Shown: positions 3,641 through 64,000, counted from the first letter of the stretch. The stretch is 64,000 nt of DNA from an uncultured Gammaproteobacteria bacterium (GCA_965230935.1 OZ246400.1:374359-438358); one strand, 5' to 3'. Made by a program: numbers and translations. Notes: generated by a model not told the origin, from the letters alone.

Positions 3641-4937
3641 ATCCGGCTTTTTTAATTTTTCCCAACAAAGCGACATCAGGTAAAGATGGTGTTTTGGAAA
3701 ACTTCACCAAGAAGAAATAATTGACAACCAAAAGCGCAAATAAACTTACCACTGCAGTAATAAAACTCACCTCAAACACTGCCAAGACAAGTGCGAGCGC
3801 ACCATACAAAACAGCTTTAACCACCATACTGGTGGCGTTACGATACATTGATCCACTGAGTGGATCGACTTTTTTTGCACGTTCAAATAAATCACTATCA
3901 AGTGGAATACTCACTAATACACTAAACAGACCAATCAAAAATACGGTCACCATGTAAAACATTGGCTCATCAATACTGAGTCGCAAAATCCACGTTATGG
4001 CAATAAGTCCAGCCCCTAAGGCAATGGTCTTTCCTCGATCAGAACTGTGTACTTTACCGGCAAAATAACTAAAGACAGCAAAGGTGATGGAGATAATCAC
4101 GGGCAGATAGGCCACCGACTCAATTGATCCAAATACGGCGTAAATAAACAGCGGCCAAAGTACATTCTCTGCAGCTCCATGCAGTGCATATAATCCCATG
4201 GAAAGATAGTTTCTCTTTTCCCGCCATCCTTTAAAAAAGGCTTTAAATGTTTTTTGTGGACGAACTGGTATGTCATGTAAATGATCCAATTTGAACAACG
4301 GAACCAATGAAAGGAGCAAAATTACCATGCTGATCGCAACAAGTAACTTTTGTGAAACAAATACCAAAATAAATGCGCCAACCAGTGGTGCGGCAATTCC
4401 GGCAATAGTACGGACAATATAAAAAATACTTGTTCCTTTCCCTGCTCCCCGTTTTTTATTATTGCTTTGGATAAATAGATATAAGTGAGCAACCCAATAA
4501 AACGCATCATATAAGGCCCACAAGGTAGCCAAAAGCACCAAGTTTGGCCAAGAAAAATCCATTTGATAGAACACAAAAAAGAATCCTGCGCTCATGAGCG
4601 TGGCAAAAATAATCACCCACCGCGCACCGATGCGACGAACGAGATCTCGAGAAAAAAAGTTAATAGGAACATTAATGGCATGGATCAAAAAATAAAAAAT
4701 CATTACATCAGTAAGTGATCGACCATTAATCAGGAGCAACACCGGAATAAACACGGCAATGAGTGCGCGTGAAAACACATGCAACCACACTGAAAGTTCA
4801 AATAGCCAAAAATCAGAGTGCATCAGCTTGTACATCTGATTATTGTGGTAGCTATGGAAAAGGTGCATAACTTTTTTGGAGAAATCTGCATGGTAGTATA
4901 CCATGGAAATAGTGTGTTTTTGCACAGTCCATGACAC
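3639..4937 (-). CDS. MFS-type transporter
   Basis: About 12 TM helices with a central loop. True start is probably an internal Met (MHLFHSY... near 4868). The ORF-track N-terminus overlaps the next gene. Confidence 0.6.
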   Translation of the reverse strand: MSWTVQKHTISMVYYHADFSKKVMHLFHSYHNNQMYKLMHSDFWLFELSVWLHVFSRALIAVFIPVLLLINGRSLTDVMIFYFLIHAINVPINFFSRDLVRRIGARWVIIFATLMSAGFFFVFYQMDFSWPNLVLLATLWALYDAFYWVAHLYLFIQSNNKKRGAGKGTSIFYIVRTIAGIAAPLVGAFILVFVSQKLLVAISMVILLLSLVPLFKLDHLHDIPVRPQKTFKAFFKGWREKRNYLSMGLYALHGAAENVLWPLFIYAVFGSIESVAYLPVIISITFAVFSYFAGKVHSSDRGKTIALGAGLIAITWILRLSIDEPMFYMVTVFLIGLFSVLVSIPLDSDLFERAKKVDPLSGSMYRNATSMVVKAVLYGALALVLAVFEVSFITAVVSLFALLVVNYFFLVKFSKTPSLPDVALLGKIKKAG

Positions 4938-5293
4938 AGTGGAGGGAAGACCCGATGAATCGGAAGACGCTTCTTGCGCTTCTGGGCGCTGTGGTCCTCT
5001 TCGCCGCTCCTGCCGTCACCGACACCAACGACCCGGTGATCGACGACACGCAGGGCGACGAGAGTTCGCAAGCCCAGGCCACTCCGGCCAACCCGACCGC
5101 GCCGATGGATGCCGCCCAGGCGACCTGCGACGAGACCGTCGCGAACACCTTCAAGCAGCGGACTACGCGAGACGTGGACCGTGCGGCGACCTCGAGCGAG
5201 GCGATGGCAAGTTGGGCCTGGTGGGCGAACACGCGTGGCGGAGGTCACGCCTCGGCGAGTGCGGCGCTGACCGACACCGGAGGCTGCTGCTGA
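4931..5293 (+). CDS. small secreted protein, GC-rich
   Basis: Signal peptide MNRKTLLALLGAVVLFAAPAV, Ala/Thr/Asp-rich body, ends ...GGCC. Local GC is about 65%, much higher than the flanks. Confidence 0.4.
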   Translation: MTQWREDPMNRKTLLALLGAVVLFAAPAVTDTNDPVIDDTQGDESSQAQATPANPTAPMDAAQATCDETVANTFKQRTTRDVDRAATSSEAMASWAWWANTRGGGHASASAALTDTGGCC

Positions 5294-5527
5294 TCTGACC
5301 CGGCCGCCCTCGGCGTCAGAGCACACACAACACACATACAACAACGGAAGCTACCCTACCGGGACGGCTTTTGTTTTTATATTGAATACTTTGGCGAGCT
5401 GTGCTACACTCGCTCCATCATCGTGTACTCAGACCCAGGAAGGAATACTGAGGCGCATTACCGCAAATGCGTACGATAGCTTGAGAGGTGTTCAGCCCAA
5501 GCAATAAGAGGAGGTTACCGTACTTAC

Positions 5528-6154
5528 ATGACACCCACCTTTGCGGACTTCAGTTGGCTCGTGCTCGCCGCGAAAGAAGAGGTTGTGCACAAGGCCCGTG
5601 CTGACCTTGAGGAGCAATTAAACGAGCTCATGCGGGACTTCATAATGGCCTCGTTGTGTGATCGGGGGATTAGCGAAGATGCCCCGAAAGAAGAGCGCAC
5701 CTTCGAGGTTGATGATCCGAACAACACGCCACTTGGACACGAGGCGCAACAAGCGTTTGCGCCGCTCCAGGCGTTTGTGGACGAACACGATCTCAAGGCG
5801 ACTTATGACGCCGAGCTCAAATTCGTCCCCAATGTGCTCACAACATCGCCTACCACAATAGCGCAGCTCACCATCTGGCGAAATGGCAAGGTCCTGAGAA
5901 AAAAATGCTTCAGGTTACTGGAACAAGTCGGCGCCTTGTACGAGGCATCGACCGGGTGGCTCACGGAGCTGCGTATCCCCAGCCGGGTCGCGGAAGAGCT
6001 GTACGAGAAAATCATCACCCAGCTTTGTGAACTGGCCGGCCTGACACTCGAGGATGGCAAGCTGTTAAACAAGGCGATCGATACGGACGACATGTCCATG
6101 ATACTCTTGCTCATGAGCAAAAGTCTCGGCGGCATGAGCGGTCCGCCACAATAA
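5528..6154 (+). CDS. hypothetical protein (208 aa), moderately GC-rich
   Basis: Intact ORF with no recognised motif. Confidence 0.4.
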   Translation: MTPTFADFSWLVLAAKEEVVHKARADLEEQLNELMRDFIMASLCDRGISEDAPKEERTFEVDDPNNTPLGHEAQQAFAPLQAFVDEHDLKATYDAELKFVPNVLTTSPTTIAQLTIWRNGKVLRKKCFRLLEQVGALYEASTGWLTELRIPSRVAEELYEKIITQLCELAGLTLEDGKLLNKAIDTDDMSMILLLMSKSLGGMSGPPQ

Positions 6155-6225
6155 CACCAAACCAACACACAACCACTACCCCACCCAAGCACGAACGCGA
6201 GGGTGGGGTTGGTGTTTTGGAAAGT

Positions 6226-8260: not shown

Positions 8261-8465
8261 ACCACGTAGAAATATATATTCATCAGTAAATGCAGCCTAA
8301 AGCTGTAAATACCTAGTGAATACAGTGTTTTCTGCAATTCCCATTTGTCTCGCTTGGTCTTATCTTACCCCTCCTTTTCCCATCTCGTGGGCAGTATATG
8401 GGCAGTGCGTCTGGGGAGGGGTATCAATTGCAAGCTAGATTAAACACGCCCCCTACACCTGCTCA

Positions 8466-9464
8466 CTATTTCCCAATCCAATACCTTCCAAACACCTCAC
8501 CTCTAATCTTCCTCCCATTCCCATGCCGTAACATCCCAAGATAGGATTGCAAGGTTTCATTTTTTGGATGCTCAATGATACGTCGCAATGCTCTGCGTTT
8601 TGTCACCGTGCGCAGTGTACGGTGATCTGCAAACAATTTCCAACCAAGAAAATCCACACCAGATGATAAATTTTGAAGATGTATTTTGTTTGGATGCAAG
8701 CAGAGCTGTAGCTTGTCTTGGAGAAATGACTTAACTTTTAGTAGTTGTTCTTCAAGCTGTACTTTGCTGTGAGATAACAATACAAAATCGTCTGCATAGC
8801 GAATATAATACTTTGCCCTGAGTTTATGTTTTACCCACTGGTCAAACTGGTTCATGTAGATATTAGAAAAGAGTTGTGATGTTAGATTACCAAGTGGCAT
8901 ACCCTTTTGACTATTTTCGACTGAGAAACTTGAAATAACATTGTTAAGTAACCAAAGAATATCTGTGTCTGAAATGTATTGCTTAAAGACATTGAGGAGA
9001 ATATCATGATCCACGCTTGCAAAAAACTTACGAATATCGCACTTTAGCACCCAACAGTGTCTGGTATTGTTCTGGCTTACTGTGTACATCATGGCACGGA
9101 ATCTATCTCGTGCTTTTTGGGTTCCTTTGCCAATACGGCAAGAGTACGAGTCTGCGATGAACGTCCTGTCAAAGAATGGATAGAGCATGCGTACAATGGC
9201 ATGGTGTACTAGCCTATCTTGCACACTTGCTTTGTGGATGTGGCGTACTTTTGGATCAGTGATGATAAAGCTATGATAGCCACCATGTCTGTACGTCTTG
9301 TTTACAAGATAGTCATGAAGCGTTAGGATATGATCCATTAGGTTACGTTCAAAGTGTTGGACATCCTTTCTTTTGGATTTACCTACTCTAAACTCACGCC
9401 ATGCAGATAACAGGTTCTCTATGGCAATAATATCTTCAAATGTATGAGTCAATTGAATTTTCAT
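8466..9464 (-). CDS. diversity-generating retroelement reverse transcriptase
   Basis: RT domains including YADD (IRYADDFVLL). The DGR-specific motif-4 variant LGNLTSQ replaces the group II QG motif. It is short (~330 aa) with no maturase or endonuclease domain. Start is probably MKIQL at 9464. Confidence 0.85.
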   Translation of the reverse strand: MKIQLTHTFEDIIAIENLLSAWREFRVGKSKRKDVQHFERNLMDHILTLHDYLVNKTYRHGGYHSFIITDPKVRHIHKASVQDRLVHHAIVRMLYPFFDRTFIADSYSCRIGKGTQKARDRFRAMMYTVSQNNTRHCWVLKCDIRKFFASVDHDILLNVFKQYISDTDILWLLNNVISSFSVENSQKGMPLGNLTSQLFSNIYMNQFDQWVKHKLRAKYYIRYADDFVLLSHSKVQLEEQLLKVKSFLQDKLQLCLHPNKIHLQNLSSGVDFLGWKLFADHRTLRTVTKRRALRRIIEHPKNETLQSYLGMLRHGNGRKIRGEVFGRYWIGK

Positions 9465-9513
9465 AATACACACAAGTCTCCCCCCCCCCAACGCTCTTGA
9501 TGATCTACCAATA

Positions 9514-9834
9514 GTGGTTAAGCTCCAGACAAGCTATAAACACTGGCATGGGTTCTTGGTTCACCTTCCAAGACTCACGAGATACACACTTGGCGTGAAG
9601 ATAGATTCACTCTATACCGATTGCCTTGAGCTAGCACTAAGCGCGGGATATGCGCCAAAAGCAGAGAAGCTGCGCATTATTATGAAGCTAAATACCAAGG
9701 TGGACGCGTTAAAGTTTTTCTTAAGGGTGCTTTGGGATCTAAAAGGACTGGATAATAATAAGTATGTAGTGCTTTCCACACATCTGGCTGAAATAGGCAA
9801 AATGGTTGGCGGATGGATGAAATACCTCAAATAG
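9514..9834 (+). CDS. Avd-like four-helix-bundle accessory protein (23S IVS-protein family)
   Basis: 106 aa. The C-terminus LSTHLAEIGKMVGGWMKYL fits the four-helix-bundle/Avd pattern. Transcribed divergently from the RT. Confidence 0.55.
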   Translation: MVKLQTSYKHWHGFLVHLPRLTRYTLGVKIDSLYTDCLELALSAGYAPKAEKLRIIMKLNTKVDALKFFLRVLWDLKGLDNNKYVVLSTHLAEIGKMVGGWMKYLK

Positions 9835-9882: not shown

Positions 9883-9995
9883 GCGAGGAAGCGGTAGTTG
9901 CGATTCCAGTCGTTGTCGAAGTAGTTGACGTTCAGATCGCGGTTGTCACCGTTCCTGTTGAGCACCAGCACGTGGTGATTGCCGTTGAACACGGG
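9883..9995 (-). repeat. DGR template repeat (TR)
   Basis: 113 bp. Minus-sense translation PVFNGNHHVLVLNRNGDNRDLNVNYFDNDWNRNYRFLA is rich in AAC/AAT codons. All 22 mismatches to the VR fall at TR adenines. Confidence 0.85.
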
Positions 9996-10367
9996 TCACG
10001 CAGTCATGTTATGTATAGTGCCACCTGTGCCACCACCCATTGAATACTCTCTGGGTTGAATCGTATACGAAAGCAAATCTTTCACAGCACTATACACCAA
10101 GTATATTCATGGAAGCATGATGTCAACTCACGAGAGAACACCGTGGTCTTCTCTATTCTGGCGTACACACCGTGCTTAGTCTATAACCGCCCAGAGCCGT
10201 AGCCATGAACTGTTTCATTACAAACCAAGAAAATTGTAGCATAAAAAAACGAAACCCCACATGACGCTTCTTCCGTGTGGAAGTGAATCATGCAGGGTTT
10301 GTCGTGTTGTCCGCCAAGGAAACAAGGGCAAAATCCAAGTGGAAAGTGCCCAAGTGTCCAAGTGCCG

Positions 10368-11039
10368 CTACTTGCAGGCGAGGAAGCGGAAGTCGCGACT
10401 CCAGTCGTAGACGAAGTAGTCGACGCCCAGATCGCGGTCGCCACCGTCCCCGAGGAGCACCAGCACGCGGCGACAGCCGCTGAACACGGGCATCTGCTCG
10501 CTGAGGATGACGATCGGGAACTGACGCTGCAGCTCACCGTGCTGTGCGCCAAACGCCAGACCGTCCGCGATGGTGGGGCGCTTGAGCCCATGCTGGCGCA
10601 TGTACGCGAGCGCGTCCTTGCTGCTGGCGCGGCGGTCGAGGTGCACCAACACCAGCTCGCGCTCCTGACGGTCGGTCTTCTGGATCGGCCAGTGGTGCGC
10701 CTGCTTGTCCTTGACCAGATCGCTCGTCCAGTCGTAGTTACCCGCGTCGCGCAACATCTTGAAACGCTCCACGGGGTCGTCGGACACGGTGCAGTCCACG
10801 ATCGTACGGTAAACCTGTAGACCGAGGGGCTGAGGCGTGATGATCGTCTGCCCCGCCGTGGGCTGCTCACCACCGATGATGCTGCGCTGAGCCGCACGAA
10901 CGGCGTCGCCGAGCGCACTCTTGTCGGAGAGCAGGAGCTGTGCCTGCTCATAGGTGAGATCGGTGAGAGCGAACCCACCAAGGGTGAGAGCCAAATCCTT
11001 GGCCTGACCAGCTGTCATCTGTCGGACTGTCCCACTCAT
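10368..11039 (-). CDS. DGR target (variable) protein, C-terminal CLec-like VR region
   Basis: 223 aa, GC-rich, VR covers the last ~38 codons before the TAG stop at 10368-10370. No obvious signal peptide. Confidence 0.75.
   Translation of the reverse strand: MSGTVRQMTAGQAKDLALTLGGFALTDLTYEQAQLLLSDKSALGDAVRAAQRSIIGGEQPTAGQTIITPQPLGLQVYRTIVDCTVSDDPVERFKMLRDAGNYDWTSDLVKDKQAHHWPIQKTDRQERELVLVHLDRRASSKDALAYMRQHGLKRPTIADGLAFGAQHGELQRQFPIVILSEQMPVFSGCRRVLVLLGDGGDRDLGVDYFVYDWSRDFRFLACK
10378..10490 (-). repeat. DGR variable repeat (VR) at 3' end of target gene
   Basis: 113 bp aligning gap-free with the TR at 91/113 identity, every difference at a TR adenine. Encodes the target C-terminus ...PVFSGCRRVLVLLGDGGDRDLGVDYFVYDWSRDFRFLA. 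Confidence 0.85.
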
Positions 11040-11204
11040 GGGCTATTCCTCCAAAGGTAATAATTGGCTTTTCTATTTGTGCTTACCTAACCGTTAGGCG
11101 CACGAGACAATGCCAGTAAAGAACTTGTGAGAAAGCATAGCATAAATTAGCCATTTTGTCAATGGTTTTGCTAAAATAAAGTAATTTTTGTAAGCCCCCC
11201 ACTC

Positions 11205-11978: not shown

Positions 11979-11980
11979 AT

Positions 11981-21326: not shown

Positions 21327-21588
21327 CGAACGGAGCGGGCCGGTCTCCTGAATCCAGCTTTGTTGGATGAAGGTAGACAGGTCCGAATGATCATACTATC
21401 TCACTAGCGTCAATACTATATACTAAACCCTTTTTCTTGTCTAGACATGTATATCCCCAAAATCAAAAGAGTCCGTATCTGCTTGATCACCGTTCGGTGA
21501 GCTGATACGAACTCTAATGGTTGTTGTGTTGTTATGTTTGTGCGATCGGCCAGCTTACGCTAGCCGCTGAGGTCGTCGCCCGCGACGA

Positions 21589-22761
21589 TCAGTCGCAGAC
21601 GTCCCCGGCGCCGTCGCCGTCCGCGTCCGCCTGGTTGGGGTTGGGGACGCTCGGGCAGTTGTCCAACGCGTCGGGAACCCCATCGGCATCGGCATCCGCC
21701 TCGCACATGTCCCACACCTGGCAGCTGAAGCCGGCGGCGCACGTGCCGCAGCTCCCGCCGCAGCCATCGCCGCCGCACTCGAAGCCATCGCAGTCCGGAG
21801 TGCAGTCCTCGACGCAGGCGCCCGAAGCGCAGACGCTCTCGGCACCGGCCGAGTCCAGGCACGGGCTCCCATCGAGCGCGTCGGTGTTCACGCACTCGTC
21901 CGCGTCCTCGTCGCACTTGTCGATCGTGGTGCACGCCTCGCCGTCGTCACAGGTCTTCACCGTGCCCGAGCAGGCGCCGTTGCTGCACGCGTCGCCGCTG
22001 GTGCAGAACAGGCCGTCGTCACACGGGTCGCTGTTGTTGACGGTGAGGCAGTCGCCGTTGGCGCTGGTGCCGTCGCAACTGTTCGTGGTGCACAGGTTCC
22101 CGTCGTCGCAGTCCTTGTCCGTGCTCACGCACTCGCCGCTCACGCACGCGTCCACGGTGCACACGTTCCCGTCGTCGCAGTTGTTCTCGTCGAACGGCGC
22201 GTTGACGCACCCGACGGCCGGGTCGCAGCTGTCGTTGGTACACGGGTTCCCATCGTCGCAGTCCGGCGCCGCGCCGCCCACGCACACGCCATCGGCGCAC
22301 GCGTCGGCCGTGGTACAGGCATCTCCGTCGCTACACGCGTCGCCGGTCTCCAGGATGTGCCCACAGGTCAGGGAGTTGCCGCAGAAGTCGGACGTGCAGG
22401 AATTCCCGTCGTCGCAGGCCTCGTTGGTCTGGCACGTGACGTCGCCGGAGCTGCAGTCGCTGAACTTGACGTACGCGCAGTTACCGGTCCCATCCCCGCT
22501 CGGGTTCATGACGCACTTGGCGCCCACGGCCTCGCCGGCGGGCACGCAGCTGTCGTTCTCCGCGAGCGACACGCACTCGGTGTCCGCGACGCAGGCGTCG
22601 AGGCCGGCGTGCAGCGTGCTGAAGCCCGAAGGCGCCTTCGGTCGCGGCGCTTCGACGCTGATGAGCGACTCCTCGCTCTCGCCGTTGGCGCAGCCAGTGA
22701 TGAAACAACAGAGGAGAAGATAGGCCAGGGTGGCCACGGTCATCGAGATCTTCGTACGCAT
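21589..22761 (-). CDS. Cys-rich secreted lipoprotein with CDDGNxCTxDxC repeats and C-terminal thrombospondin-type-3 Ca-binding repeat, GC-rich
   Basis: Lipobox [10 protein letters not shown]. More than 10 repeats of CDDGN.CT.D.C. C-terminus [33 protein letters not shown]. About 65% GC. Start taken at MRTKISM. Confidence 0.6.
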
Positions 22762-23013
22762 GGAAAAGAGCTCCTTCTTGCGCTCGAGCCCCCCAACTAT
22801 GTGTCGAGAGGGTGTCTTCAAGGGAAACGTATGGCCACCCCGCGGCAGCCCACGAGGTAGTGGTCCTCAACATCATGTCAAAGAACACCCGCTGCCAGAC
22901 CAGAAGCCTGCAAGCGAGCGGAACCGTAGTAATAACCCAAACCAGGCCTACTACGAGAACATCATACCCTAGCATTTTGGTAAAATTATGTCAAGTTTAG
23001 ATTAAAAAATAAA

Positions 23014-50641: not shown

Positions 50642-51217
50642 TTAAGCACCACTCCCGCTGGACTGAGTCGAACTGTCTACTGCCGTCATGCGACAAACTC
50701 GATAGACCTGAACGACTGCTGAAGGATCCGTTCTTGGAGATTGCCAATAAGGCAAGTACACCAGTCTCAACCCCTCAGGCAAGGCCAGATTGACGATGTC
50801 CCGGAGCGCGCCAATCAGATCCCGTGCGTGCCCTTCACTCATACCAAAAGGGCACAATGTCGAGACGAGCAGGTTATCGGTACCTCTCCAAAGCTGACGA
50901 GCTCCAAAGGGCCGGTCATGCCCGTGTGCATCAGCCTCCCAAGCCTCAGGTCGGTATCCATTGTCATTGACCTCCTCCCCCTCACCCAGGAGCAGTCGAA
51001 TTCGCTCGACTGGGACCTGCGGGAGAGCCCAGAACTGCTTATGGGGCTCGATGAGGGTCTCGGTGTAAGTTGCTGAAAACATTATACTTCCTGCTGCGCC
51101 GATCGTCCACAGCACGTCGGCCAGCTCTACAAGAAGCTGCTCGCGGCGAGTTGCGGAGTCGAGACCGTAGAACCTCTTATTGAGATTCACATTGACGACG
51201 CCATTCGCGAGCATCAC
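50642..51217 (-). CDS. hypothetical protein, GC-rich
   Basis: Start trimmed to MLANGV. The longer ORF overlaps the recombinase gene. Confidence 0.3.
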   Translation of the reverse strand: MMLANGVVNVNLNKRFYGLDSATRREQLLVELADVLWTIGAAGSIMFSATYTETLIEPHKQFWALPQVPVERIRLLLGEGEEVNDNGYRPEAWEADAHGHDRPFGARQLWRGTDNLLVSTLCPFGMSEGHARDLIGALRDIVNLALPEGLRLVYLPYWQSPRTDPSAVVQVYRVCRMTAVDSSTQSSGSGA

Positions 51218-51229
51218 AGCGCTTTCGCC

Positions 51230-52651
51230 GTGAACGAGATGCAACTCACGGACCGCGGCACGCTGGTCTATGCCCCTGCGCGGCCGAAGTTTCAGCAACT
51301 TATTCTCTGGTTGCGTGAGGGTGCGCTCCGCGGCGTGGTGTTCATGTGCTGGGACCGCGCCAGCAGGAACGATCAGGACAAGCTCATGCTGCGAGAACTC
51401 ATCGACCGCGGAGTCGACGTTCGCTTTGCCCATGCCGCGTACGCACGCAACAGCTCCGGTGAATTGCACATGGACATCGATAGCATGGTCTCGGCGTACC
51501 ACTCAAGGAAGCTGAGCGAGCAGATCACGGCTGTGCACGACAAGCTTATGCGTGAGGGCAAGTACCCGTTCCAGGCTCCTACTGGGTACCTGGACACAGG
51601 GAGCATCAAGGAAGTCGATCCGCACTATCGCGGAACGCTCCGCATGATTTTTGAGCTGTTCGTTACGGGCTCTTGGAGTTACGAGGCGCTGGCGAGGTGG
51701 GCAAATGCGCAGGGCCTGAGACAGCGACCTCGACGCGCAGCCCGTTCTGCAGACCAACTCGCCAACGCGATGCCGAACCTCAATCCTAGGATTGCTCGCC
51801 CCCTAACGCACAAGACTATCGAGGCCATGTTGAAGAATCCGTTCTATGCAGGCAAGACGGTGTGGCACGGGGAGATGTTCGACGCGGTTCACGAACCGGT
51901 GATAACGCTGGACACCTTTCACGCCGTTCAAGAGGTCCTCGCTGGACGCGGCCGAACACGGCTCGCGCCGATGGATGAGGGTGCCGAACCGTATGTCTAC
52001 CGCCGCATGATTCGGTGTGCGTGCGGTCGCGCCTTCTCACCGTATACCAAGAAGGGGCATCGGTACTACACGGTTAGCTGTCGACGTTCCTGTGATAATA
52101 CGGTTCGAAACCTGTCCGAGCGGCGTGTCGACTCGCTCGTGGCCTCGCTCATGGAACGGCTGTCGTTGACAGGCGCCGAGCTGACCGCGCTCGTCGAGAG
52201 AACACATGAGGGGCTAGATGCCCTGCGGGCAAAGGCCGAACAACGGAGGGTCAAGATTCGCAATGCTCTCCAGGAGGCTGCACGTGACCTCAAGTACTTG
52301 GACGAAAACAAGGTGCTCCTCCTGCGCGGTGGCACCATGACGCCCGACGAGCACCTTTCTCGAGTTGGAAGGCTCCGCGCGAAGGAAGCGAAGCTGCAGG
52401 CGGAATTGGACGTACCCGACCCCGAACTGGAGGAAATCGCCGATGGAGTCGGAGAGTTTCTTGAACTCCTAAATTGCGCTAAATCAACCTACAAAACGGC
52501 TCCCGCGACCATCAGGCGGCAGCTTGTCGAGGAGGTACTTCTTGAACTCCGCTTGGAGCACGGAAGTGTCGCTGAAATTAGAGCCAAACCCGGGTTCGAT
52601 GTACTGCTGAAAAGGGGGTGGCTCCACGGTGGTGGGCGATCCAGGAATTGA
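51230..52651 (+). CDS. large serine recombinase family protein, catalytic domain apparently degenerate
   Basis: DRASRN, recombinase domain, zinc ribbon (CACGRAFSPY...SCRRSCD) and a coiled coil are all present. Where Y.RVS..Q is expected the sequence reads VYAPARPKFQQ, so the catalytic Ser is lost. GC-rich. The 3' end overlaps tRNA-Ile. Confidence 0.55.
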   Translation: MNEMQLTDRGTLVYAPARPKFQQLILWLREGALRGVVFMCWDRASRNDQDKLMLRELIDRGVDVRFAHAAYARNSSGELHMDIDSMVSAYHSRKLSEQITAVHDKLMREGKYPFQAPTGYLDTGSIKEVDPHYRGTLRMIFELFVTGSWSYEALARWANAQGLRQRPRRAARSADQLANAMPNLNPRIARPLTHKTIEAMLKNPFYAGKTVWHGEMFDAVHEPVITLDTFHAVQEVLAGRGRTRLAPMDEGAEPYVYRRMIRCACGRAFSPYTKKGHRYYTVSCRRSCDNTVRNLSERRVDSLVASLMERLSLTGAELTALVERTHEGLDALRAKAEQRRVKIRNALQEAARDLKYLDENKVLLLRGGTMTPDEHLSRVGRLRAKEAKLQAELDVPDPELEEIADGVGEFLELLNCAKSTYKTAPATIRRQLVEEVLLELRLEHGSVAEIRAKPGFDVLLKRGWLHGGGRSRN

Positions 52652-55919: not shown

Positions 55920-56312
55920 ATGGCCGAGAAATTCAACTGGAGCAAGTTCGTGCAGATGAGCGTGGTGTACGCGATCATCGGCGTGGTGTGCATCACCCTG
56001 CTGGGGGTGGCCAAGGACTCGACCACCGACCTGGCCATCGCCATGATCATCTTCCTGGTCGGCGGCGCGATCAACTACCTGGCCATCGGCTTCGTGCCGG
56101 CGCAGCAGTTGGCCGCCTGGCTCAACCACGACGGCGAGATGGTCGATTTCGGCCTGGTGTTCTGGACGGTCGTGATCGGCATGCCGGTGGCATGCCTGGT
56201 GGGCTTGTTCTGGATCTACATCAGACACCGGCTCGACCAGGCAATCCGGAGCGCCAAGGCGGCCATCCGCATGGGCGGCCCGTCGACGAGGCGCAAGGAC
56301 GACCCGAATTGA
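55920..56312 (+). CDS. small 4-TM membrane protein, GC-rich
   Basis: RBS GAGGGAG. 130 aa with 4 hydrophobic helices. About 65% GC. Confidence 0.5.
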   Translation: MAEKFNWSKFVQMSVVYAIIGVVCITLLGVAKDSTTDLAIAMIIFLVGGAINYLAIGFVPAQQLAAWLNHDGEMVDFGLVFWTVVIGMPVACLVGLFWIYIRHRLDQAIRSAKAAIRMGGPSTRRKDDPN

Positions 56313-56422
56313 CCCTTTCAACCGCGCTCGCCAGATCCTACGGGTTATGGCTCGAGCGAAGCCGCGTCCATCCTTCGGGCGCGACGGCCACGTGTTGCGG
56401 CTCAAAGCAACATCACAACCAC

Positions 56423-56460
56423 AAGCCCGCCTGGCGAATACACGTCGGCGGGCTTTGTGA
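56423..56460 (+). terminator. rho-independent terminator
   Basis: aagcccgcc ... ggcgggctttgtgattc. Confidence 0.5.
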
Positions 56461-58603: not shown

Positions 58604-58638
58604 CTATACCACGGTGTCTGCTTTATCTTCAATTGATT

Positions 58639-58974: not shown

Positions 58975-59079
58975 AGAAATAAATTATGTGCACTCATCGC
59001 ATTACTGTCGACCTGAATCATTGAGATTCACCAGCATGATGATTGGCGAAAATACTATAGCAAAAAAATGGTCGCTTGT

Positions 59080-59995
59080 CAAGTTGGATTATATAAAAAT
59101 GTGAAGAGGGGCCCCGGCCACGATTGCTCGTGTGTTGTCGCCAGGACCCCTCAAGGGGTTGCGGGCCCGAAGACCCACGGTTGCGGACGTTGCGACCAGG
59201 TCGCCAACGCCCTGTACGATTGGGAGCGCCGTGGGCACCCCCGACGAAGACAAGCGGGGAGAAGGCCCCCCCCACCTGGTGTCGGCTAGGCCGACGCGAC
59301 CCTGCGGTTTGCGCTGTGCCGTCAACCGGTTCAGACGACAAGTGCGGTGGTTGCAAGGCCAAGGGGCCGTGACGATCAGTGACCAGGCCCGGTGGGCGTG
59401 CGTCCTGAGATTTCGCCGCGGCACTCCTGCACATCTGCTACCCGAAGGCGTGCAGCCCAGGAGTCGGTGGTGCCTGACACCGTTGCCAGGCTTTATCAGG
59501 ATACAGCACCTGAACGGCGCTGTCAAGATTTTTGCCGTTTTGAAACGCGCACAAATTTCAAGAGCCGGCTGGGTTGCAGCTGGCTCTGAAGGTGCCGTTG
59601 TGGCAGCGTGTTTATTTTCTCGGACATTTAGAGGAGGCAAGGAACCATCTCGCAGAGACAATCCGTCCATCCACTGGCGAACGGGGCTCCCTCGGAGATA
59701 TTGCACGGAGTAAATCCGAACTCACTCGCAAGACGAAACCCGCCTCCCCTAAACATCGTCGCAAGTGTCACCCTACGTATCGTAACCTATCGAACCTCGG
59801 CGTATGACTGCTCCGTTTCCTGCCACCCGAAGGACGACTTTGTATCTAGCAGCGTAGCGTCGAGAGACGCTCAGCTCTTAAGCCCCCTTGCGGGGAGTAG
59901 GAATCCACCAGGCCCCGTCAGTCCATGGTCTGCATTGCGCCCCAGGGTAGGGCCAACACTCGCCGCGATCGTCAGGAACATAGCCATTGGCTGGG
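59080..59995. ncRNA. GC-rich ~0.9 kb apparently non-coding insert; candidate structured RNA or foreign remnant
   Basis: About 65% GC. Only mutually overlapping Arg/Pro-rich ORFs on both strands. Lies between rpsP and the KH gene. A tmRNA-like tag-frame GCC...TATCTAGCAGCGTAG (..YLAA*) is on the + strand and a GGGGAGGCGGGTTTCG start on the - strand. No T-arm or CCA end was found. Confidence 0.2.
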
Positions 59996-60035
59996 TACGA
60001 TAGTATATTGGCTGCATATATTTGTCAAGACATAC

Positions 60036-60078
60036 AAAAACAGCACTGGTTTCCCAGTGCTGTTACGCTTTATTTTTA
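60036..60078. terminator. bidirectional terminator downstream of rpsP
   Basis: cagcactgg-tttc-ccagtgctg with T-runs on both sides. Confidence 0.55.
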
Positions 60079-60083
60079 GCAAT

Positions 60084-60521: not shown

Positions 60522-60590
60522 AATCAATTTGCTCAAATGCAATACGGCAGTAGTGTACCGATCAACGTCAAATTCGTCAAGACCTCCTCC

Positions 60591-62876
60591 CTACCGAGCT
60601 GCTTGAGCCTGCGCCTGTTCTAATTTAACCGAAAGCATGCGAGAAACGCCATCGTCTCCCATGGTGATCCCATAGAGTACGTCTGCAGCCTCCATAGTGG
60701 CACGATTGTGAGAGATCACAATAAATTGTGTCTTGCTTGCGAGCTCCTCGAGAATCTTTGAAAACCGAAGCGAGTTACTTTCATCTAGCGCAGCGTCCAC
60801 CTCATCAAGCACTACAAATGGAGATGGATTAATCGACAAAATTGCACACAGCAATGCCACCGATGCCATCGCTCGTTCTCCACCGGAGAGCACGCTCACG
60901 TCTGCAATGCGCTTTCCTGGCGGCGTAGCGTGAATATCAATACCAGCAAGCTCCTCTGCAGCAGCTTCATCCAACTCATGCTCCAACGCATCAACGTCAT
61001 GCACGTGTTGCTCATCATTAGTCTCTGCCACAGGTCGTGGCCGTGGTTCTTGTTTAATTTGCACAATGCCTGCCTTTCCACCATCAAAGAGTAATTTGAA
61101 ATACCGATCAAATTCTTTGTTAATTGCAGCAAATGCTGACTTGCGTTTAGTACGCATAACATCATCCAGGGATGCAATCACTTTTTGCAACCCATGCATG
61201 GCACCATCAAGATCCTCAACTTGTTCTGTTAAGAAGCTATAGCGCTCTTGGGTTTGCGCATATTCTTCGATGATCTCTTCATCAATACTCCCAATTAACT
61301 CAAGTTGTCGGCGTAGACGATACACATCGTGCTGCACATCAGACACCACCACACTGCGGAGTGCACTTGGCTTTTGTGCGATGATTTCATCTTTAAGCTC
61401 AAGCACTTCGCGGTCAATTTCTTCAGAAAGTGCTTGTTGTCGAGTTTCCACGCGAGCAAGTTGTACAGCAGCATCACTTAATTTTCGCTGCGCCTCGTGC
61501 AACGCGCTTTGATGAGTTTGTAACTCACGCTGCAATTCAAAAAAGCTACTCTTCTTTTTCTGTTCATCTTTGCTAAATGCTTGCATGCGTGCCTGACGCT
61601 CTGCCACCTCTTCTTCAAGCAACACTAATGTCTTTTCGAGTTCGAGAATCTGCGCTTTGATCTTGGTATCAATAAATGGTTTGCGCTTTTCCGGTGCCGG
61701 TTTTTGTAATCGATCAATTAACCCGGAAACGCGCTTACTAATCTTGCCAAGCAACCGTGTAAGGACAGACTGATCTTTTTGCGCAGCATGTCCTTTGAGT
61801 TCAGCCTGAACCGTTTCAAGCTCCATAATAATTTTGGAAAGCGGAAGTGGCGTCCACTTTGCCTCATTTTGCGCGCGCATTTTGGCAACCTCCATTGCAT
61901 TGGTCAATCGCAACAATTCCTCCTTGGTTGAGGACCGCTTCGCATAGACTTGCTCGTATTCTTTTTGCAATTGCGTATAGGTGTCACTATCAGTTTCAGC
62001 TACTTCCATTTCTCGCATTTTTTCAAACGCGACGTCATATTGTTTTTGAATACTTTGGGACGCCTCCTGTGCTGCTCCATGCTTGCGCAGTGCCTCTTTA
62101 TATTGGCTAGCGCTTTCCACCCACTGCGCACCATAATACTGAAGGTATTTTTCTTTCAGTTGCTGCTCTACACTTTCACGTTTCTCAAGACGCTTTACTT
62201 GGCGCGTCAGGCTCGACAATCGTGGTGCAATCTCTTGCAACAACATTTTGGTCTCGTGCAAATTCTCTTTTGTGGCATGTAACTTGAGTGTTGAACGATG
62301 TCGCTTAATTTGAAACTCTTTAATCCCGGCTGCTTCGTCAAAAAATTGCTTGCGCTCTGCTGCACTTGCCATCAACATATGATCAATCATTCCCTGGCCA
62401 ATTACAGTGTATGTTTTTTGCGCAAAATGGGCACGCGCCAACAAAAGCTGAATATCTGCCAATCGAACCGTCTGATTATTGATCAGATATTCTGACTCAC
62501 CTGATCGATACACCCGTCGTGTAATAGCAATCTCACTATAATCAAACACACTATCTTCCTCTTCTGGTCCTGGGGTTATGGTTCCGTCTTCATTGTTGAG
62601 CGTTAGGGTAACTTGCGCAAATCCAAGTCGTGATTTATTGGCAGAACCGGAAAAAATCACATCCTGACTTTTCTTTCCACGAATGGTCTTGAGTGATTGC
62701 TCGCCCAACACCCACCGAATAGCATCAGCAACATTACTTTTTCCACTCCCATTTGGGCCCACGATACCGGTAATCCCTTTATGTTTGGATTGTGGTGGGA
62801 TAAATTCAAAAACAGTCTTTTTGGCAAAAGACTTAAAGCCTTGGATTTCCATCTGCTGCAAATGCATAGTACCCAC
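60591..62876 (-). CDS. smc: SMC-like chromosome segregation ATPase (short form, 761 aa)
   Basis: Walker A GPNGSGKSN. Long coiled-coil. ABC signature LSGGERAMASVALL. Walker B/D-loop VLDEVDAALD. Confidence 0.8.
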   Translation of the reverse strand: MGTMHLQQMEIQGFKSFAKKTVFEFIPPQSKHKGITGIVGPNGSGKSNVADAIRWVLGEQSLKTIRGKKSQDVIFSGSANKSRLGFAQVTLTLNNEDGTITPGPEEEDSVFDYSEIAITRRVYRSGESEYLINNQTVRLADIQLLLARAHFAQKTYTVIGQGMIDHMLMASAAERKQFFDEAAGIKEFQIKRHRSTLKLHATKENLHETKMLLQEIAPRLSSLTRQVKRLEKRESVEQQLKEKYLQYYGAQWVESASQYKEALRKHGAAQEASQSIQKQYDVAFEKMREMEVAETDSDTYTQLQKEYEQVYAKRSSTKEELLRLTNAMEVAKMRAQNEAKWTPLPLSKIIMELETVQAELKGHAAQKDQSVLTRLLGKISKRVSGLIDRLQKPAPEKRKPFIDTKIKAQILELEKTLVLLEEEVAERQARMQAFSKDEQKKKSSFFELQRELQTHQSALHEAQRKLSDAAVQLARVETRQQALSEEIDREVLELKDEIIAQKPSALRSVVVSDVQHDVYRLRRQLELIGSIDEEIIEEYAQTQERYSFLTEQVEDLDGAMHGLQKVIASLDDVMRTKRKSAFAAINKEFDRYFKLLFDGGKAGIVQIKQEPRPRPVAETNDEQHVHDVDALEHELDEAAAEELAGIDIHATPPGKRIADVSVLSGGERAMASVALLCAILSINPSPFVVLDEVDAALDESNSLRFSKILEELASKTQFIVISHNRATMEAADVLYGITMGDDGVSRMLSVKLEQAQAQAAR

Positions 62877-63004
62877 CTATTGTACTATGGGTACTATCCT
62901 CAAGCAATCGTCCTTATAATTTGACGGTCTAAATTACTAACCCCGCAGACTGTTAGGCCGCGGGGAAGTGGTTGTTTGAATTGTGTTTTTGCTTCTGCTC
63001 GACG

Positions 63005-63988
63005 TCAGGATGCACTGGTCGTCAAGCCAAGCTTGGTGATGGTGTTCAAGAACATCTTGGTGTCGAACACCTTCTGCAGCTCCTCAGGAGGGTTGATCCG
63101 AAGGTTTCCGTAGTAGCTGAGCATGCACCCGATACAGAAGTTGGACCACTCGTTCCAGTGAACGTCCTCCACAGCCGGAGCATCACCCACGATTTGATCT
63201 CGTACCACGGTCAGGAACGCGCCGCATTGGAGCATCCCAGCGCGGGACAAAACCTCGTCGGGGTCGCTGAACTGATCGGTGACGACTGGTTGCGTAGCAA
63301 AGGAGATGGATGTTGAGCCCACCTGCGACTCCGGTGCTTCAACAGCCTGCAGCAGCCCTTGGACAATCTCTTTGACTCCCCCTGGAGAAAGAAGGTTCTC
63401 AGCAACACGCAACTGCGCGCACAACCGATCGACCTCTGCCACCAGTCCGGTGAACAGCTCGTCCGGAGTCTCCGGGGTGAACGGTTCGGCCGCATCCTCG
63501 TTGGCCAGGGTGTGCAATCCCGAAGGATGCAACAACCGAAGCGCGTTTTCCACGCTTAGATCAACGCTCGAGCGCGTCGCGCCCCAACCACGAAATACCG
63601 GCGCACCGGATCTGCGGTTGGTTTGGGCACGAAAACGCCAGTCAACCGCACCGATCCCCTGGTACACCGTAGTGCCAAGGAACCAATGCATGGTCCACTG
63701 CCAACGCCAGAAGCACAGCAGTGTCGCGCCCCACTCGATGATCAGATCCTTGGCCATCCAGAGCAGCTCGATCCAACCGTCGGTTTGCACCGCTTTAACC
63801 GCGGCGCTCCAACAGCGGAGCACCCACTGGGGGAACATCTTGTGCCAAGTGGCCCAGCGCCAGGACGGAAACCACCCTCCCAACGCGTGCACCAGGTGAT
63901 GCGGCATGTCGAAGACTTCCACGTCACCAAAGAGCAGGCGCTTGGTCTGCTCGAACTCGCGCGAGCGCGACTTGATGCAGACCTGCAA
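63005..63988 (-). CDS. hypothetical protein, GC-rich; may extend beyond window end
   Basis: 327-aa ORF, W/H-rich (HHLVH). The reading frame is still open at the window edge. Confidence 0.3.
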   Translation of the reverse strand: MQVCIKSRSREFEQTKRLLFGDVEVFDMPHHLVHALGGWFPSWRWATWHKMFPQWVLRCWSAAVKAVQTDGWIELLWMAKDLIIEWGATLLCFWRWQWTMHWFLGTTVYQGIGAVDWRFRAQTNRRSGAPVFRGWGATRSSVDLSVENALRLLHPSGLHTLANEDAAEPFTPETPDELFTGLVAEVDRLCAQLRVAENLLSPGGVKEIVQGLLQAVEAPESQVGSTSISFATQPVVTDQFSDPDEVLSRAGMLQCGAFLTVVRDQIVGDAPAVEDVHWNEWSNFCIGCMLSYYGNLRINPPEELQKVFDTKMFLNTITKLGLTTSAS

Positions 63989-64000
63989 CTCGCCGTCCTT

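What the first reader, a model, noticed from the sequence alone, without database searches (positions are those of the whole stretch)
4900..64000. Mosaic base composition: at least eight discrete 60-67% GC patches in a ~42% GC chromosome
The patches are 4900-6160, 9870-11040, 21520-22900, 48940-49450, 50640-52660, 55900-56460, 59050-59995 and 62970-64000. They are sharply bounded and carry Arg/Ala/Pro-rich ORFs, each with overlapping spurious ORFs on the opposite strand. Several are next to mobility signatures (DGR TR/target, tRNA-Asp, the serine recombinase at tRNA-Ile). The DGR target being GC-rich with a matching local TR argues these are genuine, not all assembly chimeras. They may mark repeated acquisition from high-GC donors or a distinct class of imported secreted or membrane proteins. 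In a metagenome-derived sequence, chimeric joins must still be excluded for the other patches.
Basis: seen in the sequence. Interest (0 to 1): 0.55.

Follow-up and report, generated by a model that had tools for sequence, protein, structure and literature searches.

The report
Persistent GC-rich genes in CPR bacterium
Eight short GC-rich stretches in the otherwise AT-rich chromosome of an ultra-small (CPR/Patescibacteria) bacterium are real, and most are single accessory genes; the two that could be traced in relatives have stayed GC-rich over very long evolutionary times instead of being recent imports, which the usual explanation for such islands does not predict.

Summary
Eight sharply bounded 58-68% GC segments (12.4% of the window) sit in a ~44% GC background. 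They are not assembly chimeras: all eight are 100% identical in assemblies from a second sequencing run. They are a mixed set. Seven are coding, with GC3 of 0.60-0.95 against 0.31-0.58 for host-like genes. Five of those seven encode envelope proteins, and two are ORFans. Patch 7 is non-coding and looks like an ~870-nt structured RNA gene with its own promoter and terminator. Patch 5 is a decayed tRNA-Ile-integrated element. "Repeated recent import from high-GC donors" fails where it could be tested. Patch 3 has a positional orthologue in a relative. Four-fold sites between the two are saturated, yet both keep GC3 at 0.90 among flanking genes at ~0.4. Patch 2 is the DGR target. In 44 of 44 related CPR cassettes the target is more GC-rich than its own RT, and eight phage DGRs show no such contrast. 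A gene-local GC-ward force, either biased gene conversion or selection, therefore seems to act in this lineage. Its mechanism is unresolved.

The parts
4941..6208 (+). Patch 1 (58% GC). It holds two same-frame ORFs, 4931-5293 (120 aa, N-terminal signal/TM segment, GC3 0.80) and 5528-6154 (208 aa, GC3 0.68), separated by a non-periodic spacer at 5294-5527.
   Evidence: no Pfam, NCBIfam or PHROG family
8466..9491 (-). DGR reverse transcriptase with host-like composition (GC3 0.40)
   Evidence: Pfam RVT_1 6e-27; GC3
9514..9834 (+). bAvd accessory protein of the DGR (GC3 0.50)
   Evidence: Pfam bAvd 2.9e-11
9883..9995 (-). DGR template repeat (TR)
   Evidence: 83% identical to the VR, and all mismatches fall at TR adenines
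10348..11043 (-). Patch 2 (64% GC). This is the DGR target gene, ORF 10368-11039 (223 aa, GC3 0.83), with the VR at 10378-10490 at its 3' end.
   Evidence: model pLDDT 72 with C-type-lectin-like top fold hits, all weak
21542..22926 (-). Patch 3 (67.5% GC). ORF 21589-22821 encodes a 410-aa lipoprotein with Cys-rich CxDGNxCT repeats and a TSP3 repeat (GC3 0.90).
   Evidence: Pfam Dicty_CTDC and TSP_3; positional orthologue in L180
48993..49433 (-). Patch 4 (63% GC). The probable ORF is 49021-49389 (122 aa, one TM-like segment, GC3 0.72). The strand assignment is tentative.
   Evidence: codon periodicity; the ORF limits fit the patch limits and neighbour orientation; no gene was called in public assemblies
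50771..52645 (.). Patch 5 (59% GC). It is a decayed integrative element: an N-terminally truncated large serine recombinase at 51230-52651 (+) and a divergent ORF at 50642-51217/51502 (-). It abuts and overlaps the 3' end of tRNA-Ile (52633-52706, -).
   Evidence: Pfam Resolvase (profile positions 47-145 only) and Recombinase, PHROG 95 (positions 142-553 of 651); no catalytic Ser motif in any frame, and the last 19 nt are the complement of the tRNA 3' end
55949..56453 (+). Patch 6 (65% GC). ORF 55920-56312 encodes a 130-aa protein with 3-4 TM segments and GC3 of 0.95. It is an ORFan and has a GC-rich 3' flank.
   Evidence: only a self-hit among 1.84 billion representatives
59108..59976 (-). 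Patch 7 (61% GC). This is a non-coding candidate structured RNA gene of ~870 nt, possibly two units. The promoter-like site is at 60028-60000, an internal one at 59526-59498, and the terminal hairpin plus U-tract at ~59190-59100. It lies between the rpsP terminator (60064-60039) and the KH-gene promoter (59082-59054).
   Evidence: no codon periodicity anywhere; fold z -6.5/-5.5 on the minus strand against -2.8 on the plus strand; promoter and terminator scan; no Rfam family; no DNA homologue
63076..64000 (-). Patch 8 (60% GC). It is the 3' two-thirds of a 470-aa ORFan with 3 N-terminal TM segments (GC3 0.73). The gene runs from 63005 to ~64417, beyond the window end.
   Evidence: it sits between DHH/DHHA1 and SMC, which are 87 nt apart in Uhrbacteria L081

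Best explanation
The eight patches are genuine parts of one Uhrbacteria-like CPR chromosome and are a mixed set of gene-sized units. Shown: seven are single genes or gene pairs with strongly GC-biased codon usage, mostly fast-evolving accessory or envelope proteins of unknown function, and one (patch 7) is a non-coding, highly structured RNA candidate. Shown for the two patches that could be traced in relatives (patch 2, the DGR target, and patch 3, the Cys-rich lipoprotein): the GC-rich state is old. It has persisted through complete turnover of synonymous sites while neighbouring genes sit at the host's AT-rich equilibrium. It is therefore a maintained equilibrium and not an un-ameliorated recent import. 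Inferred: a gene-local GC-ward fixation bias operates in this lineage. The most likely form is GC-biased gene conversion at conversion- or recombination-prone, diversifying loci such as repeat-rich surface genes and DGR targets. The alternative is selection on the coding sequence. Patch 5 is a different case: a decayed integrative element at tRNA-Ile, which is ordinary horizontal transfer. For patches 1, 4, 6 and 8 the origin (lineage-specific gain or an old, fast-diverging GC-rich gene) is undetermined.
For: Real and not chimeric: assemblies from run ERR2281800 (a 185-kb contig, fetched as L087 covering window 4945-26132 and L086 covering 39505-60428) are 100% identical to the window across patches 1-7. 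ENA and Logan assemblies of run ERR2281801 add L083 (53005-64000, 99.99%), L085 and L088, and L084 from ERR2281800 covers 61381-64000. Coding: GC3 is 0.60-0.95 in patch ORFs against 0.31-0.58 in 42 host-like genes, and periodicity is consistent in frame. Patch 3 is old. L180 shares the synteny PK-LexA-DinB-CysRich-tRNA-Asp. Its flanking proteins are 63-76% identical and the orthologue 47-51%. GC3 is 0.90 in both genomes against 0.40-0.43 in the flanks. Excess identity at four-fold sites is only 0.03 for patch 3 and 0.05-0.19 for the flanks, yet the four-fold composition stays at A .04, C .49, G .40, T .07. The unique N-terminal domain is shared only with this orthologue among 120 homologues. 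Patch 2 is old. The same target/RT contrast appears in L089/L090 (RT 88% identical) and in L091 (RT 58%). In 44 of 44 cassettes whose RT is 55-65% identical, the target upstream of the VR has higher GC3 than its RT (0.65 against 0.43, p=8e-9). The frame-independent comparison gives 0.554 against 0.400 (43/44). RT GC3 tracks host GC (r=0.77) while target GC3 does not (r=0.27). Eight phage DGRs show no contrast. Independent third case: a 337-aa GC-rich gene in six CPR loci has diverged as much as TrmD but keeps GC3 at 0.73-0.85. No donors: patches 6 and 8 have only self-hits. The short non-coding flanks of patches 3 and 6 are also GC-rich, which fits a DNA-tract-level force.
Against: The mechanism is not shown. 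No population data were available to test for a GC-ward fixation bias or for elevated recombination. Reported gBGC effects in bacteria are a few percent of GC3 (Lassalle et al. 2015, PMC4450053), far below the 40-50 points seen here. The 44 DGR cassettes are phylogenetically related and so are not independent observations. Orthology of patch 3 rests on one relative, and independent insertion of homologues next to tRNA-Asp cannot be formally excluded. The patch 3 family is abundant and native in 70% GC genomes, so an ancient transfer is still likely as the ultimate origin. Patches 1, 4, 6 and 8 have no traceable relatives and could be recent imports from unsampled donors. Patch 5 carries mobility hallmarks.
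Confidence: 0.55

Rival explanations
1. All patches are recent, independent horizontal acquisitions from high-GC donors that have not yet ameliorated.
For: The patches have atypical composition with sharp edges. They are not homologous to each other and have different GC3 levels. Patch 5 carries an integrase remnant at the tRNA-Ile 3' end. Patch 8 sits at a DHH-SMC junction that is 87 nt long in L081. The patch 3 family is native in a 70% GC genome, and CPR homologues show graded GC3. Patescibacteria are reported to carry many genomic islands, up to 13% of genome length (PMC12455944).
Against: The patch 3 orthologue at the same locus in a relative has saturated synonymous sites and an unchanged GC3 of 0.90. 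The patch 2 contrast is conserved in 44/44 cassettes and is decoupled from host GC. No donor-like homologues exist for patches 6 and 8 in 5.8-15 billion proteins, a set that includes assemblies of the same samples. No flanking direct repeats of 10 nt or more were found at any patch.
Confidence: 0.2
2. The patches are assembly chimeras, that is, foreign high-GC reads mis-joined into a low-GC contig.
For: The source is a metagenome. Public gene callers behave erratically inside the patches.
Against: Sixteen boundaries are reproduced at 100% identity in assemblies from two runs and two pipelines. Host genes lie on both sides of every patch. The patch 2 VR matches a TR that lies in host-composition DNA. 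Patch 3 and patch 2 equivalents exist in other samples.
Confidence: 0.01
3. GC-rich codon usage is maintained by selection at the level of translation or mRNA. Examples would be a codon-biased regulon read by a subset of tRNAs, or mRNA stability for a class of envelope and diversified proteins.
For: The GC-rich tract coincides with the ORF in DGR targets; a metagene profile shows edges at the start and stop. The same holds for patches 2-4. Target GC3 has a set-point that is independent of host GC. The functional class is enriched for envelope proteins.
Against: The one ribosomal-protein gene and the other housekeeping genes in the window are not GC3-enriched (S16 0.33, KH 0.41). GC1, GC2 and short non-coding flanks are also raised. 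Per-site selection strong enough to hold ~90% GC at four-fold sites in accessory genes would be unusual.
Confidence: 0.15
4. The patches are structured RNA genes, as GC-rich islands often are in AT-rich genomes.
For: Patch 7 has no periodicity, z = -5.5 to -6.5 on one strand, and a promoter plus a terminator.
Against: The other seven patches show strong in-frame codon periodicity. For patches 2 and 3, fold z-scores are close to zero. Rfam finds only 16S rRNA and two tRNAs in the window.
Confidence: 0.05
5. The genes are repeatedly replaced from a high-GC reservoir. For example, the episymbiont recurrently captures alleles of its high-GC host's surface proteins at the same loci.
For: Cys-rich repeat proteins are abundant in Myxococcota, Binatia and Thermoanaerobaculia. 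The window protein is about as similar to those (46-52%) as to its positional orthologue (47%).
Against: The full architecture, including the unique N-terminal domain, is shared only with the CPR orthologue. This cannot explain DGR targets, whose TR must co-evolve with the VR. No donors were found for patches 6 and 8.
Confidence: 0.07

Closest known systems
Compositional genomic islands and horizontally transferred genes in Patescibacteria (mSystems 2025, PMC12455944)
   Same: Atypical-composition segments make up ~12% of the sequence. They carry accessory genes of unknown function, and some lie next to tRNAs and recombinases (patch 5).
   Different: At least patches 2 and 3 are not recent arrivals. 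They keep a foreign-looking composition through saturating synonymous divergence, which the amelioration model (Lawrence and Ochman 1997, cited from my own knowledge) does not predict. Most patches are single genes without mobility genes or flanking repeats.
Diversity-generating retroelements, Patescibacteria-restricted clade (Roux et al. 2021, PMC8144416; Wu et al. 2018, PMC5758913)
   Same: The cassette has an RT, bAvd, a TR and a target with a C-terminal VR, with adenine-specific TR/VR mismatches and cellular, CPR-type relatives.
   Different: The whole target gene is 15-40 GC points richer than its own RT and Avd, across the clade. The surveys I could search mention only short GC-rich IMH-flanking segments and whole-cassette GC deviation as a sign of HGT. 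Eight phage DGRs lack the contrast.
GC-biased gene conversion at recombination hotspots (well known in eukaryotes; proposed for bacteria by Lassalle et al. 2015, PMC4450053)
   Same: The GC enrichment is local and persistent. It is strongest at third positions, also affects first and second positions and short flanks, and occurs at loci likely to recombine or convert often.
   Different: The magnitude is far larger than reported for bacteria, and the tracts are gene-sized. No recombination or polymorphism evidence was available here.
GC-rich non-coding RNA genes in AT-rich genomes (Klein, Misulovin and Eddy 2002, cited from my own knowledge) and large orphan bacterial ncRNAs such as GOLLD, ROOL and OLE
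   Same: Patch 7 is a large (~870 nt) GC-rich intergenic element without coding signal. It folds strongly on one strand and has its own promoter and terminator.
   Different: It matches no Rfam family. No homologues were found, so no covariation support is possible. It could be two adjacent RNAs.

Membership tests
Diversity-generating retroelement (patch 2 and neighbours) | DGR-type reverse transcriptase next to the repeat pair | tested here: met
   Pfam RVT_1 6e-27 at 8466-9491. It is 55-88% identical to RTs of 46 other cassettes that have TR/VR pairs, and 23-37% identical (where most of the RT aligns) to phage RTs that include DGR RTs such as BPP-1 Brt.
Diversity-generating retroelement (patch 2 and neighbours) | TR/VR pair whose differences are confined to adenines of the TR | tested here: met
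   TR 9883-9995 against VR 10378-10490: 19 mismatches, all at TR adenines.
Diversity-generating retroelement (patch 2 and neighbours) | VR at the 3' end of a target ORF | tested here: met
   The VR ends about 10 nt before the stop of ORF 10368-11039.
Diversity-generating retroelement (patch 2 and neighbours) | Accessory variability determinant (Avd) | tested here: met
   Pfam bAvd 2.9e-11 at 9514-9834.
Diversity-generating retroelement (patch 2 and neighbours) | Variable protein with a C-type lectin (CLec) fold | tested here: inconclusive
Diversity-generating retroelement (patch 2 and neighbours) | Ongoing mutagenic retrohoming (VR polymorphism in the population) | not testable with these tools
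   No read-level data. Two runs gave identical consensus sequences.
Recently acquired genomic island (horizontal transfer) | Atypical base composition and codon usage | tested here: met
   All patches.
Recently acquired genomic island (horizontal transfer) | Mobility genes, tRNA insertion site or flanking direct repeats | tested here: not met
   Only patch 5 has a truncated serine recombinase overlapping the tRNA-Ile 3' end. No direct repeat of 10 nt or more was found at any patch boundary. The Tyr integrase at tRNA-Asp belongs to the AT-rich side.
Recently acquired genomic island (horizontal transfer) | Absence from the orthologous site in relatives | tested here: inconclusive
   Met for patch 8 (DHH-SMC 87 nt apart in L081) and for patch 7 (the S16-KH gap is short in most CPR relatives). 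Not met for patch 3 (orthologue present in L180) or patch 2 (conserved in related cassettes). Patches 1, 4, 5 and 6 were not traceable.
Recently acquired genomic island (horizontal transfer) | Identifiable close homologues in a donor lineage of matching composition | tested here: not met
   Patch 3 best hit is 46% identical. Patch 2 has only DGR relatives. Patches 6 and 8 have only self-hits. The patch 5 integrase is at most 31% identical to anything in the phage and plasmid collections.
Structured non-coding RNA gene (patch 7) | No protein-coding signal | tested here: met
   The GC range across codon phases is 0.096 against a random expectation of 0.106, and no local periodicity appears in any 180-nt window.
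Structured non-coding RNA gene (patch 7) | Folding energy beyond composition-matched controls, with strand asymmetry | tested here: met
   z = -6.5. z = -5.5 on the minus strand against -2.8 on the plus strand, which exceeds the 16S halves at -4.1 and -2.6.
Structured non-coding RNA gene (patch 7) | Own transcription signals | tested here: met
   A promoter-like site at 60028-60000 follows the rpsP terminator. There is a terminal hairpin plus U-tract at ~59190-59100. Five promoter-like sites were found against 0.9 expected. These are consensus matches only.
Structured non-coding RNA gene (patch 7) | Conserved structure with covariation in homologues, or membership of a known family | tested here: not met
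   No Rfam hit. No homologue in the fetched loci, plasmids or phages.
GC-biased gene conversion tract | GC enrichment persisting at equilibrium despite synonymous turnover | tested here: met
   Patch 3 orthologue pair; DGR targets; the 337-aa module.
GC-biased gene conversion tract | Enrichment also in non-coding parts of the tract | tested here: inconclusive
   Patch 3 flanks are 0.62-0.70 GC and the patch 6 3' flank is 0.65. In DGR targets, however, GC falls to host level within ~30-90 nt of the start and stop.
GC-biased gene conversion tract | Elevated recombination and AT->GC fixation bias in polymorphism data | not testable with these tools
   This needs read mapping or multiple strains.

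The most novel reading that the evidence does not exclude
Uhrbacteria-like CPR bacteria harbour a gene-local GC-ward fixation process, such as unusually strong biased gene conversion or a targeted repair or conversion pathway. It holds a specific set of fast-evolving accessory genes at 60-70% GC (GC3 up to 0.9) inside ~44% GC chromosomes for evolutionary times long enough to saturate synonymous sites. That set includes essentially all target genes of the CPR-restricted DGR clade and some surface lipoproteins. If so, 'foreign-looking' islands in these genomes are often native.
Probability: 0.4. Interest if true: 0.8.

Novelty: new variant of a known kind. Interest (0 to 1): 0.6.

Why it matters
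Atypical GC content is the standard signal used to call horizontally transferred islands and to flag contamination in metagenome-assembled genomes. If some CPR genes remain GC-rich indefinitely, those calls will be systematically wrong for this huge and poorly understood radiation. Public gene callers already pick wrong-strand ORFs in these patches. A clade-wide compositional contrast between DGR targets and their own reverse transcriptases is a new and easily testable handle on how DGR targets evolve. It would also be one of the strongest candidate cases of local GC-biased fixation in bacteria, where the existence and strength of gBGC are still debated. In addition, patch 7 adds a candidate large orphan RNA in a conserved ribosomal-protein operon.

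Tried and rejected
- rRNA or another known RNA as the cause: Rfam finds only 16S rRNA and two tRNAs, and patch 7 matches no family.
- Patches as copies of one mobile element: no patch-to-patch similarity by blastn or tblastx.
- Homology between the window's patches and GC-rich patches in 79 CPR rpsP loci: none.
- Close relatives of the host in metagenome contigs, using a poorly conserved membrane protein: none.
- Exact-protein look-ups with maximal ORFs failed for KH, TrmD and the integrase because the public gene calls use different start codons.
- Patch 7 as a frameshifted pseudogene: rejected, since there is no local periodicity.
- Adenine avoidance or RT-driven A depletion as the cause of GC-rich DGR targets: rejected, because A3 and T3 are depleted to a similar extent.
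- The target/RT contrast as a general DGR property: rejected by eight phage controls.
- Relatives of this RT in IMG/VR: none.
- Additional VRs in other patches: none.
- Target-site duplications at patch edges: none of 10 nt or more.
- Donor hints for the patch 5 integrase in phages and plasmids: hits of at most 31% identity, uninformative.
- DNA homologues of patch 7 in plasmids and phages: none.
- PRJEB17505 was not found in the paper library.
- Two long folding scripts timed out (in part).

Full report
OBSERVATION. A sliding GC profile and an unsupervised two-state segmentation recover exactly eight high-GC segments: 4941-6208, 10348-11043, 21542-22926, 48993-49433, 50771-52645, 55949-56453, 59108-59976 and 63076-64000. 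They have 58-68% GC and together make up 12.4% of the window. Host 500-nt windows average 43.8% GC (sd 3.7, max 51.8), so the patches lie 4.0-6.5 sd above the background. Edges are sharp, with GC changing by 20-45 points within one 60-nt bin. Patch 2 starts at ~10348, because 9870-10347 is host-like and holds the TR. Patch 8 runs ~417 nt past the window end.

SOURCE AND THE CHIMERA QUESTION. rpsP synteny places the organism among Uhrbacteria- and Magasanikbacteria-like Patescibacteria. The patch 8 protein led to the source: metagenome project PRJEB17505, runs ERR2281800 and ERR2281801, plus a 931-kb NCBI contig. A 185-kb contig from ERR2281800 was fetched in two pieces covering window 4945-26132 and 39505-60428, and it is 100% identical to the window. 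Further pieces from ENA and Logan cover 53005-64000 (99.99%), 59848-64000, 61381-64000 and 10002-18987. Every patch therefore has host DNA on both sides in assemblies from two runs, so chimeric joins are effectively excluded. Public gene callers do stumble in the patches. They call antisense ORFs in patches 2, 3 and 6, an ORF in the non-coding patch 7, and nothing in patch 4.

WHAT THE PATCHES CONTAIN. The patches are not related to each other. Codon-position analysis shows that seven are coding. GC3 is 0.60-0.95 in patch ORFs against 0.31-0.58 in 42 host-like genes, and periodicity is in frame along each patch.
- Patch 1 has a 120-aa protein with a signal-like segment and a 208-aa protein.
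- Patch 2 is the DGR target. The RT is at 8466-9491, bAvd at 9514-9834, the TR at 9883-9995 and the VR at 10378-10490, and all 19 mismatches fall at TR adenines.
- Patch 3 is a 410-aa lipoprotein with Cys-rich CxDGNxCT repeats and a TSP3 repeat.
- Patch 4 is probably a 122-aa protein with one TM segment on the minus strand.
- Patch 5 holds a large serine recombinase that lacks its catalytic N-terminus in every frame. Its last 19 nt are the complement of the tRNA-Ile 3' end, and a divergent ORF lies beside it. This is a decayed integrated element.
- Patch 6 is a 130-aa protein with 3-4 TM segments and GC3 of 0.95.
- Patch 8 is a 470-aa protein with three N-terminal TM segments.
Five of the seven coding patches thus encode envelope proteins. 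Patches 6 and 8 are ORFans, with only self-hits among 1.84 billion representatives and 5.8 billion clusters. The real ORFs are not especially Arg/Ala/Pro-rich; the off-frame ORFs are.

PATCH 7 IS NON-CODING. It shows no codon periodicity globally or in any 180-nt window (phase range 0.096 against 0.106 for random sequence). On the minus strand it folds far better than dinucleotide shuffles (z -6.5; z -5.5 against -2.8 on the plus strand, stronger than the 16S halves). It has several UUCG-capped stems. It is bracketed by the rpsP terminator (60064-60039), a promoter-like site (60028-60000), a terminal hairpin plus U-tract (~59190-59100) and the promoter of the KH gene (59082-59054). It matches no Rfam family and no homologue was found. 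It is best read as an orphan structured RNA gene of ~870 nt. It may be two units, because an internal promoter-like site lies at 59526-59498. The S16-KH junction it occupies varies in length across CPR relatives.

IS THE GC-RICHNESS RECENT IMPORT? The classical reading is un-ameliorated horizontal transfer, and it could be tested for two patches.
(a) Patch 3. Homologues are abundant in high-GC phyla. The best hit lies among paralogues in a uniformly 70% GC genome, and two Uhrbacteria carry homologues with intermediate GC3. At first this looked like an amelioration series. However, the only near-full-length homologue, P0007, lies in contig L180 at the same position: pyruvate kinase, LexA, DinB/IMS, Cys-rich gene, tRNA-Asp. 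The flanking proteins are 63-76% identical (~67% at the nucleotide level) and the Cys-rich proteins 47-51%. Of 120 homologues, only this one shares the unique N-terminal domain. In both genomes the gene is a sharply bounded island with GC3 of 0.90 among neighbours at 0.40-0.43. Four-fold sites are saturated: excess identity over chance is 0.03 for the gene and 0.05-0.19 for the flanks. Yet the gene's four-fold composition remains A .04, C .49, G .40, T .07. That is a compositional equilibrium and not a relic of recent transfer.
(b) Patch 2. The target has GC3 of 0.83 next to its own Avd (0.50) and RT (0.40). The same contrast is seen in cassettes with 88% and 58% RT identity. A metagenome scan with an RT alignment gave 80 loci. 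In the 44 complete cassettes that have an adenine-specific TR/VR pair, the target upstream of the VR always has higher GC3 than the RT (0.65 against 0.43; 44/44; p=8e-9). A frame-independent measure agrees: the 400 nt upstream of the VR are 55.4% GC, against 40.0% for the RT and ~45% for both the spacer and the DNA beyond the target. RT GC3 tracks the host's GC (r=0.77, slope 1.3) whereas target GC3 does not (r=0.27). A3 and T3 are depleted to a similar extent, so this is not adenine avoidance. The GC-rich tract coincides with the ORF. Eight phage DGRs show no contrast (differences -0.04 to +0.08), and this RT clade has no IMG/VR relatives. That is consistent with the Patescibacteria-restricted DGR clade of Roux et al. 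2021.
(c) A third, independent case turned up in relatives. A 337-aa GC-rich gene sits at a syntenic position in six CPR loci. It has diverged as much as TrmD (81% against 79% amino-acid identity, with extensive four-fold turnover) but keeps GC3 at 0.73-0.85.
GC-rich patches are common in the CPR loci sampled, and nine of ten of their genes have no Pfam family.

INTERPRETATION. Shown: the patches are genuine. They are a mixed set (seven coding, one RNA-like). Patch 5 is a decayed integrative element. Patches 2 and 3 are old and compositionally maintained. Inferred: a gene-local GC-ward fixation bias exists in this lineage. GC-biased gene conversion at conversion- or recombination-prone, diversifying loci is the candidate I consider most likely. 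It acts on DNA tracts, and the non-coding flanks of patches 3 and 6 are GC-rich. It also raises GC1 and GC2, and it can persist at equilibrium. It has been proposed for bacteria, though with much smaller effects (Lassalle et al. 2015, PMC4450053). Selection on the coding sequence is the main alternative. It fits the ORF-coincident edges in DGR targets but not the lack of GC3 enrichment in the ribosomal-protein and housekeeping genes of the window. For patches 1, 4, 6 and 8, recent gain from unsampled donors and old, fast-diverging native genes cannot be told apart with the data available. The junctions occupied by patches 7 and 8 are variable hotspots in relatives.

COMPARISON WITH WHAT IS KNOWN. 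Compositional islands and HGT in Patescibacteria are documented, at up to 13% of genome length (PMC12455944), and DGRs are well known in CPR. What I did not find in the searchable literature is a within-cassette contrast between target and RT, or long-term maintenance of GC-rich genes in these genomes. I therefore rate the finding as a new variant of a known kind, with moderate-to-high interest. The main caveats are that the mechanism is unproven, the DGR cassettes are not phylogenetically independent, and the orthology of patch 3 rests on one relative.

Noticed in passing
window 11044-21200: An AT-rich stretch (33-42% GC, below the ~45% of the rest) carries an NgoFVII-like restriction enzyme and a DNA methylase, a DUF5659 protein, a Toprim primase-like protein and a tyrosine integrase (20041-21177) abutting tRNA-Asp (21214-21287).
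   Followed up: partly
window 53134-53820 (-), between 16S rRNA (53900-55407) and tRNA-Ile (52633-52706): A LAGLIDADG-type homing-endonuclease-like ORF sits in the 16S-tRNA-Ile spacer. No 23S rRNA follows within the ~52 kb of window downstream of tRNA-Ile, so the rRNA operon appears to be unlinked.
   Followed up: partly
L003 15476-16540, L004 14547-15560, L007 15451-16467, L008 8040-9059, L009 5802-6812, L024 11343-12356 (and downstream ORFs): A conserved GC-rich module (a 337-aa protein with a DHH-like motif, a ~250-aa protein, then a ~700-aa DEAD-box helicase-like protein) lies ~4-5 kb downstream of rpsP in six CPR genomes. It has co-diverged with TrmD but keeps GC3 at 0.73-0.85. The first two proteins have no Pfam family.
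   Followed up: partly
window patches 2, 3, 4, 6, 7 (public calls seen in L083, L086, L087): Public gene predictions are wrong or missing inside the GC-rich patches. An antisense 176-aa ORF is called instead of the DGR target, and a 167-aa off-frame ORF instead of the 410-aa lipoprotein. A 171-aa antisense ORF is called in patch 6, a 193-aa ORF in the non-coding patch 7, and nothing in patch 4. As a result, the real patch 3 protein is absent from the 5.8-billion-protein collection.
   Followed up: yes
window 8300-11300 vs L089/L090; window 23107-26598 vs L180: The DGR cassette is 85.6% identical at the nucleotide level to one in sample ERZ23496502 (four-fold sites not saturated). The housekeeping block PK-LexA-DinB of a contig from that same sample is only ~67% identical (saturated). 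If both contigs belong to one organism, the DGR cassette moved between lineages more recently than they split.
   Followed up: partly
window 23107-25110 (-) next to patch 3; L180 1560-3582: lexA and an error-prone polymerase gene (dinB/IMS family) lie immediately upstream of the fast-evolving GC-rich lipoprotein gene in both genomes. It was not examined whether this adjacency means anything for the gene's evolution.
   Followed up: no
window 33927-46002 (-): A 3390-aa ORF with faint or weak Big/TIG-type Ig-like domain hits is followed upstream by a 633-aa protein with a T4SS-pilin-like domain. Both have host composition and may form a surface or attachment apparatus.
   Followed up: no
rpsP loci L001-L079: Two junctions behave as insertion hotspots across CPR genomes. 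The S16-KH gap ranges from ~200 nt to ~4 kb (L016, L019, L027, L030). The DHH-SMC gap ranges from 87 nt (L081) to ~1.9 kb (L023). The inserted content in those relatives was not flagged as GC-rich.
   Followed up: partly
L123 1777-3729: This is the one clear exception among the DGR cassettes. Its 650-aa target has GC3 of 0.36-0.38, essentially equal to that of its RT (0.35). The GC-rich state therefore goes with the short (~175-280 aa) target type and not with every target of this RT clade.
   Followed up: no
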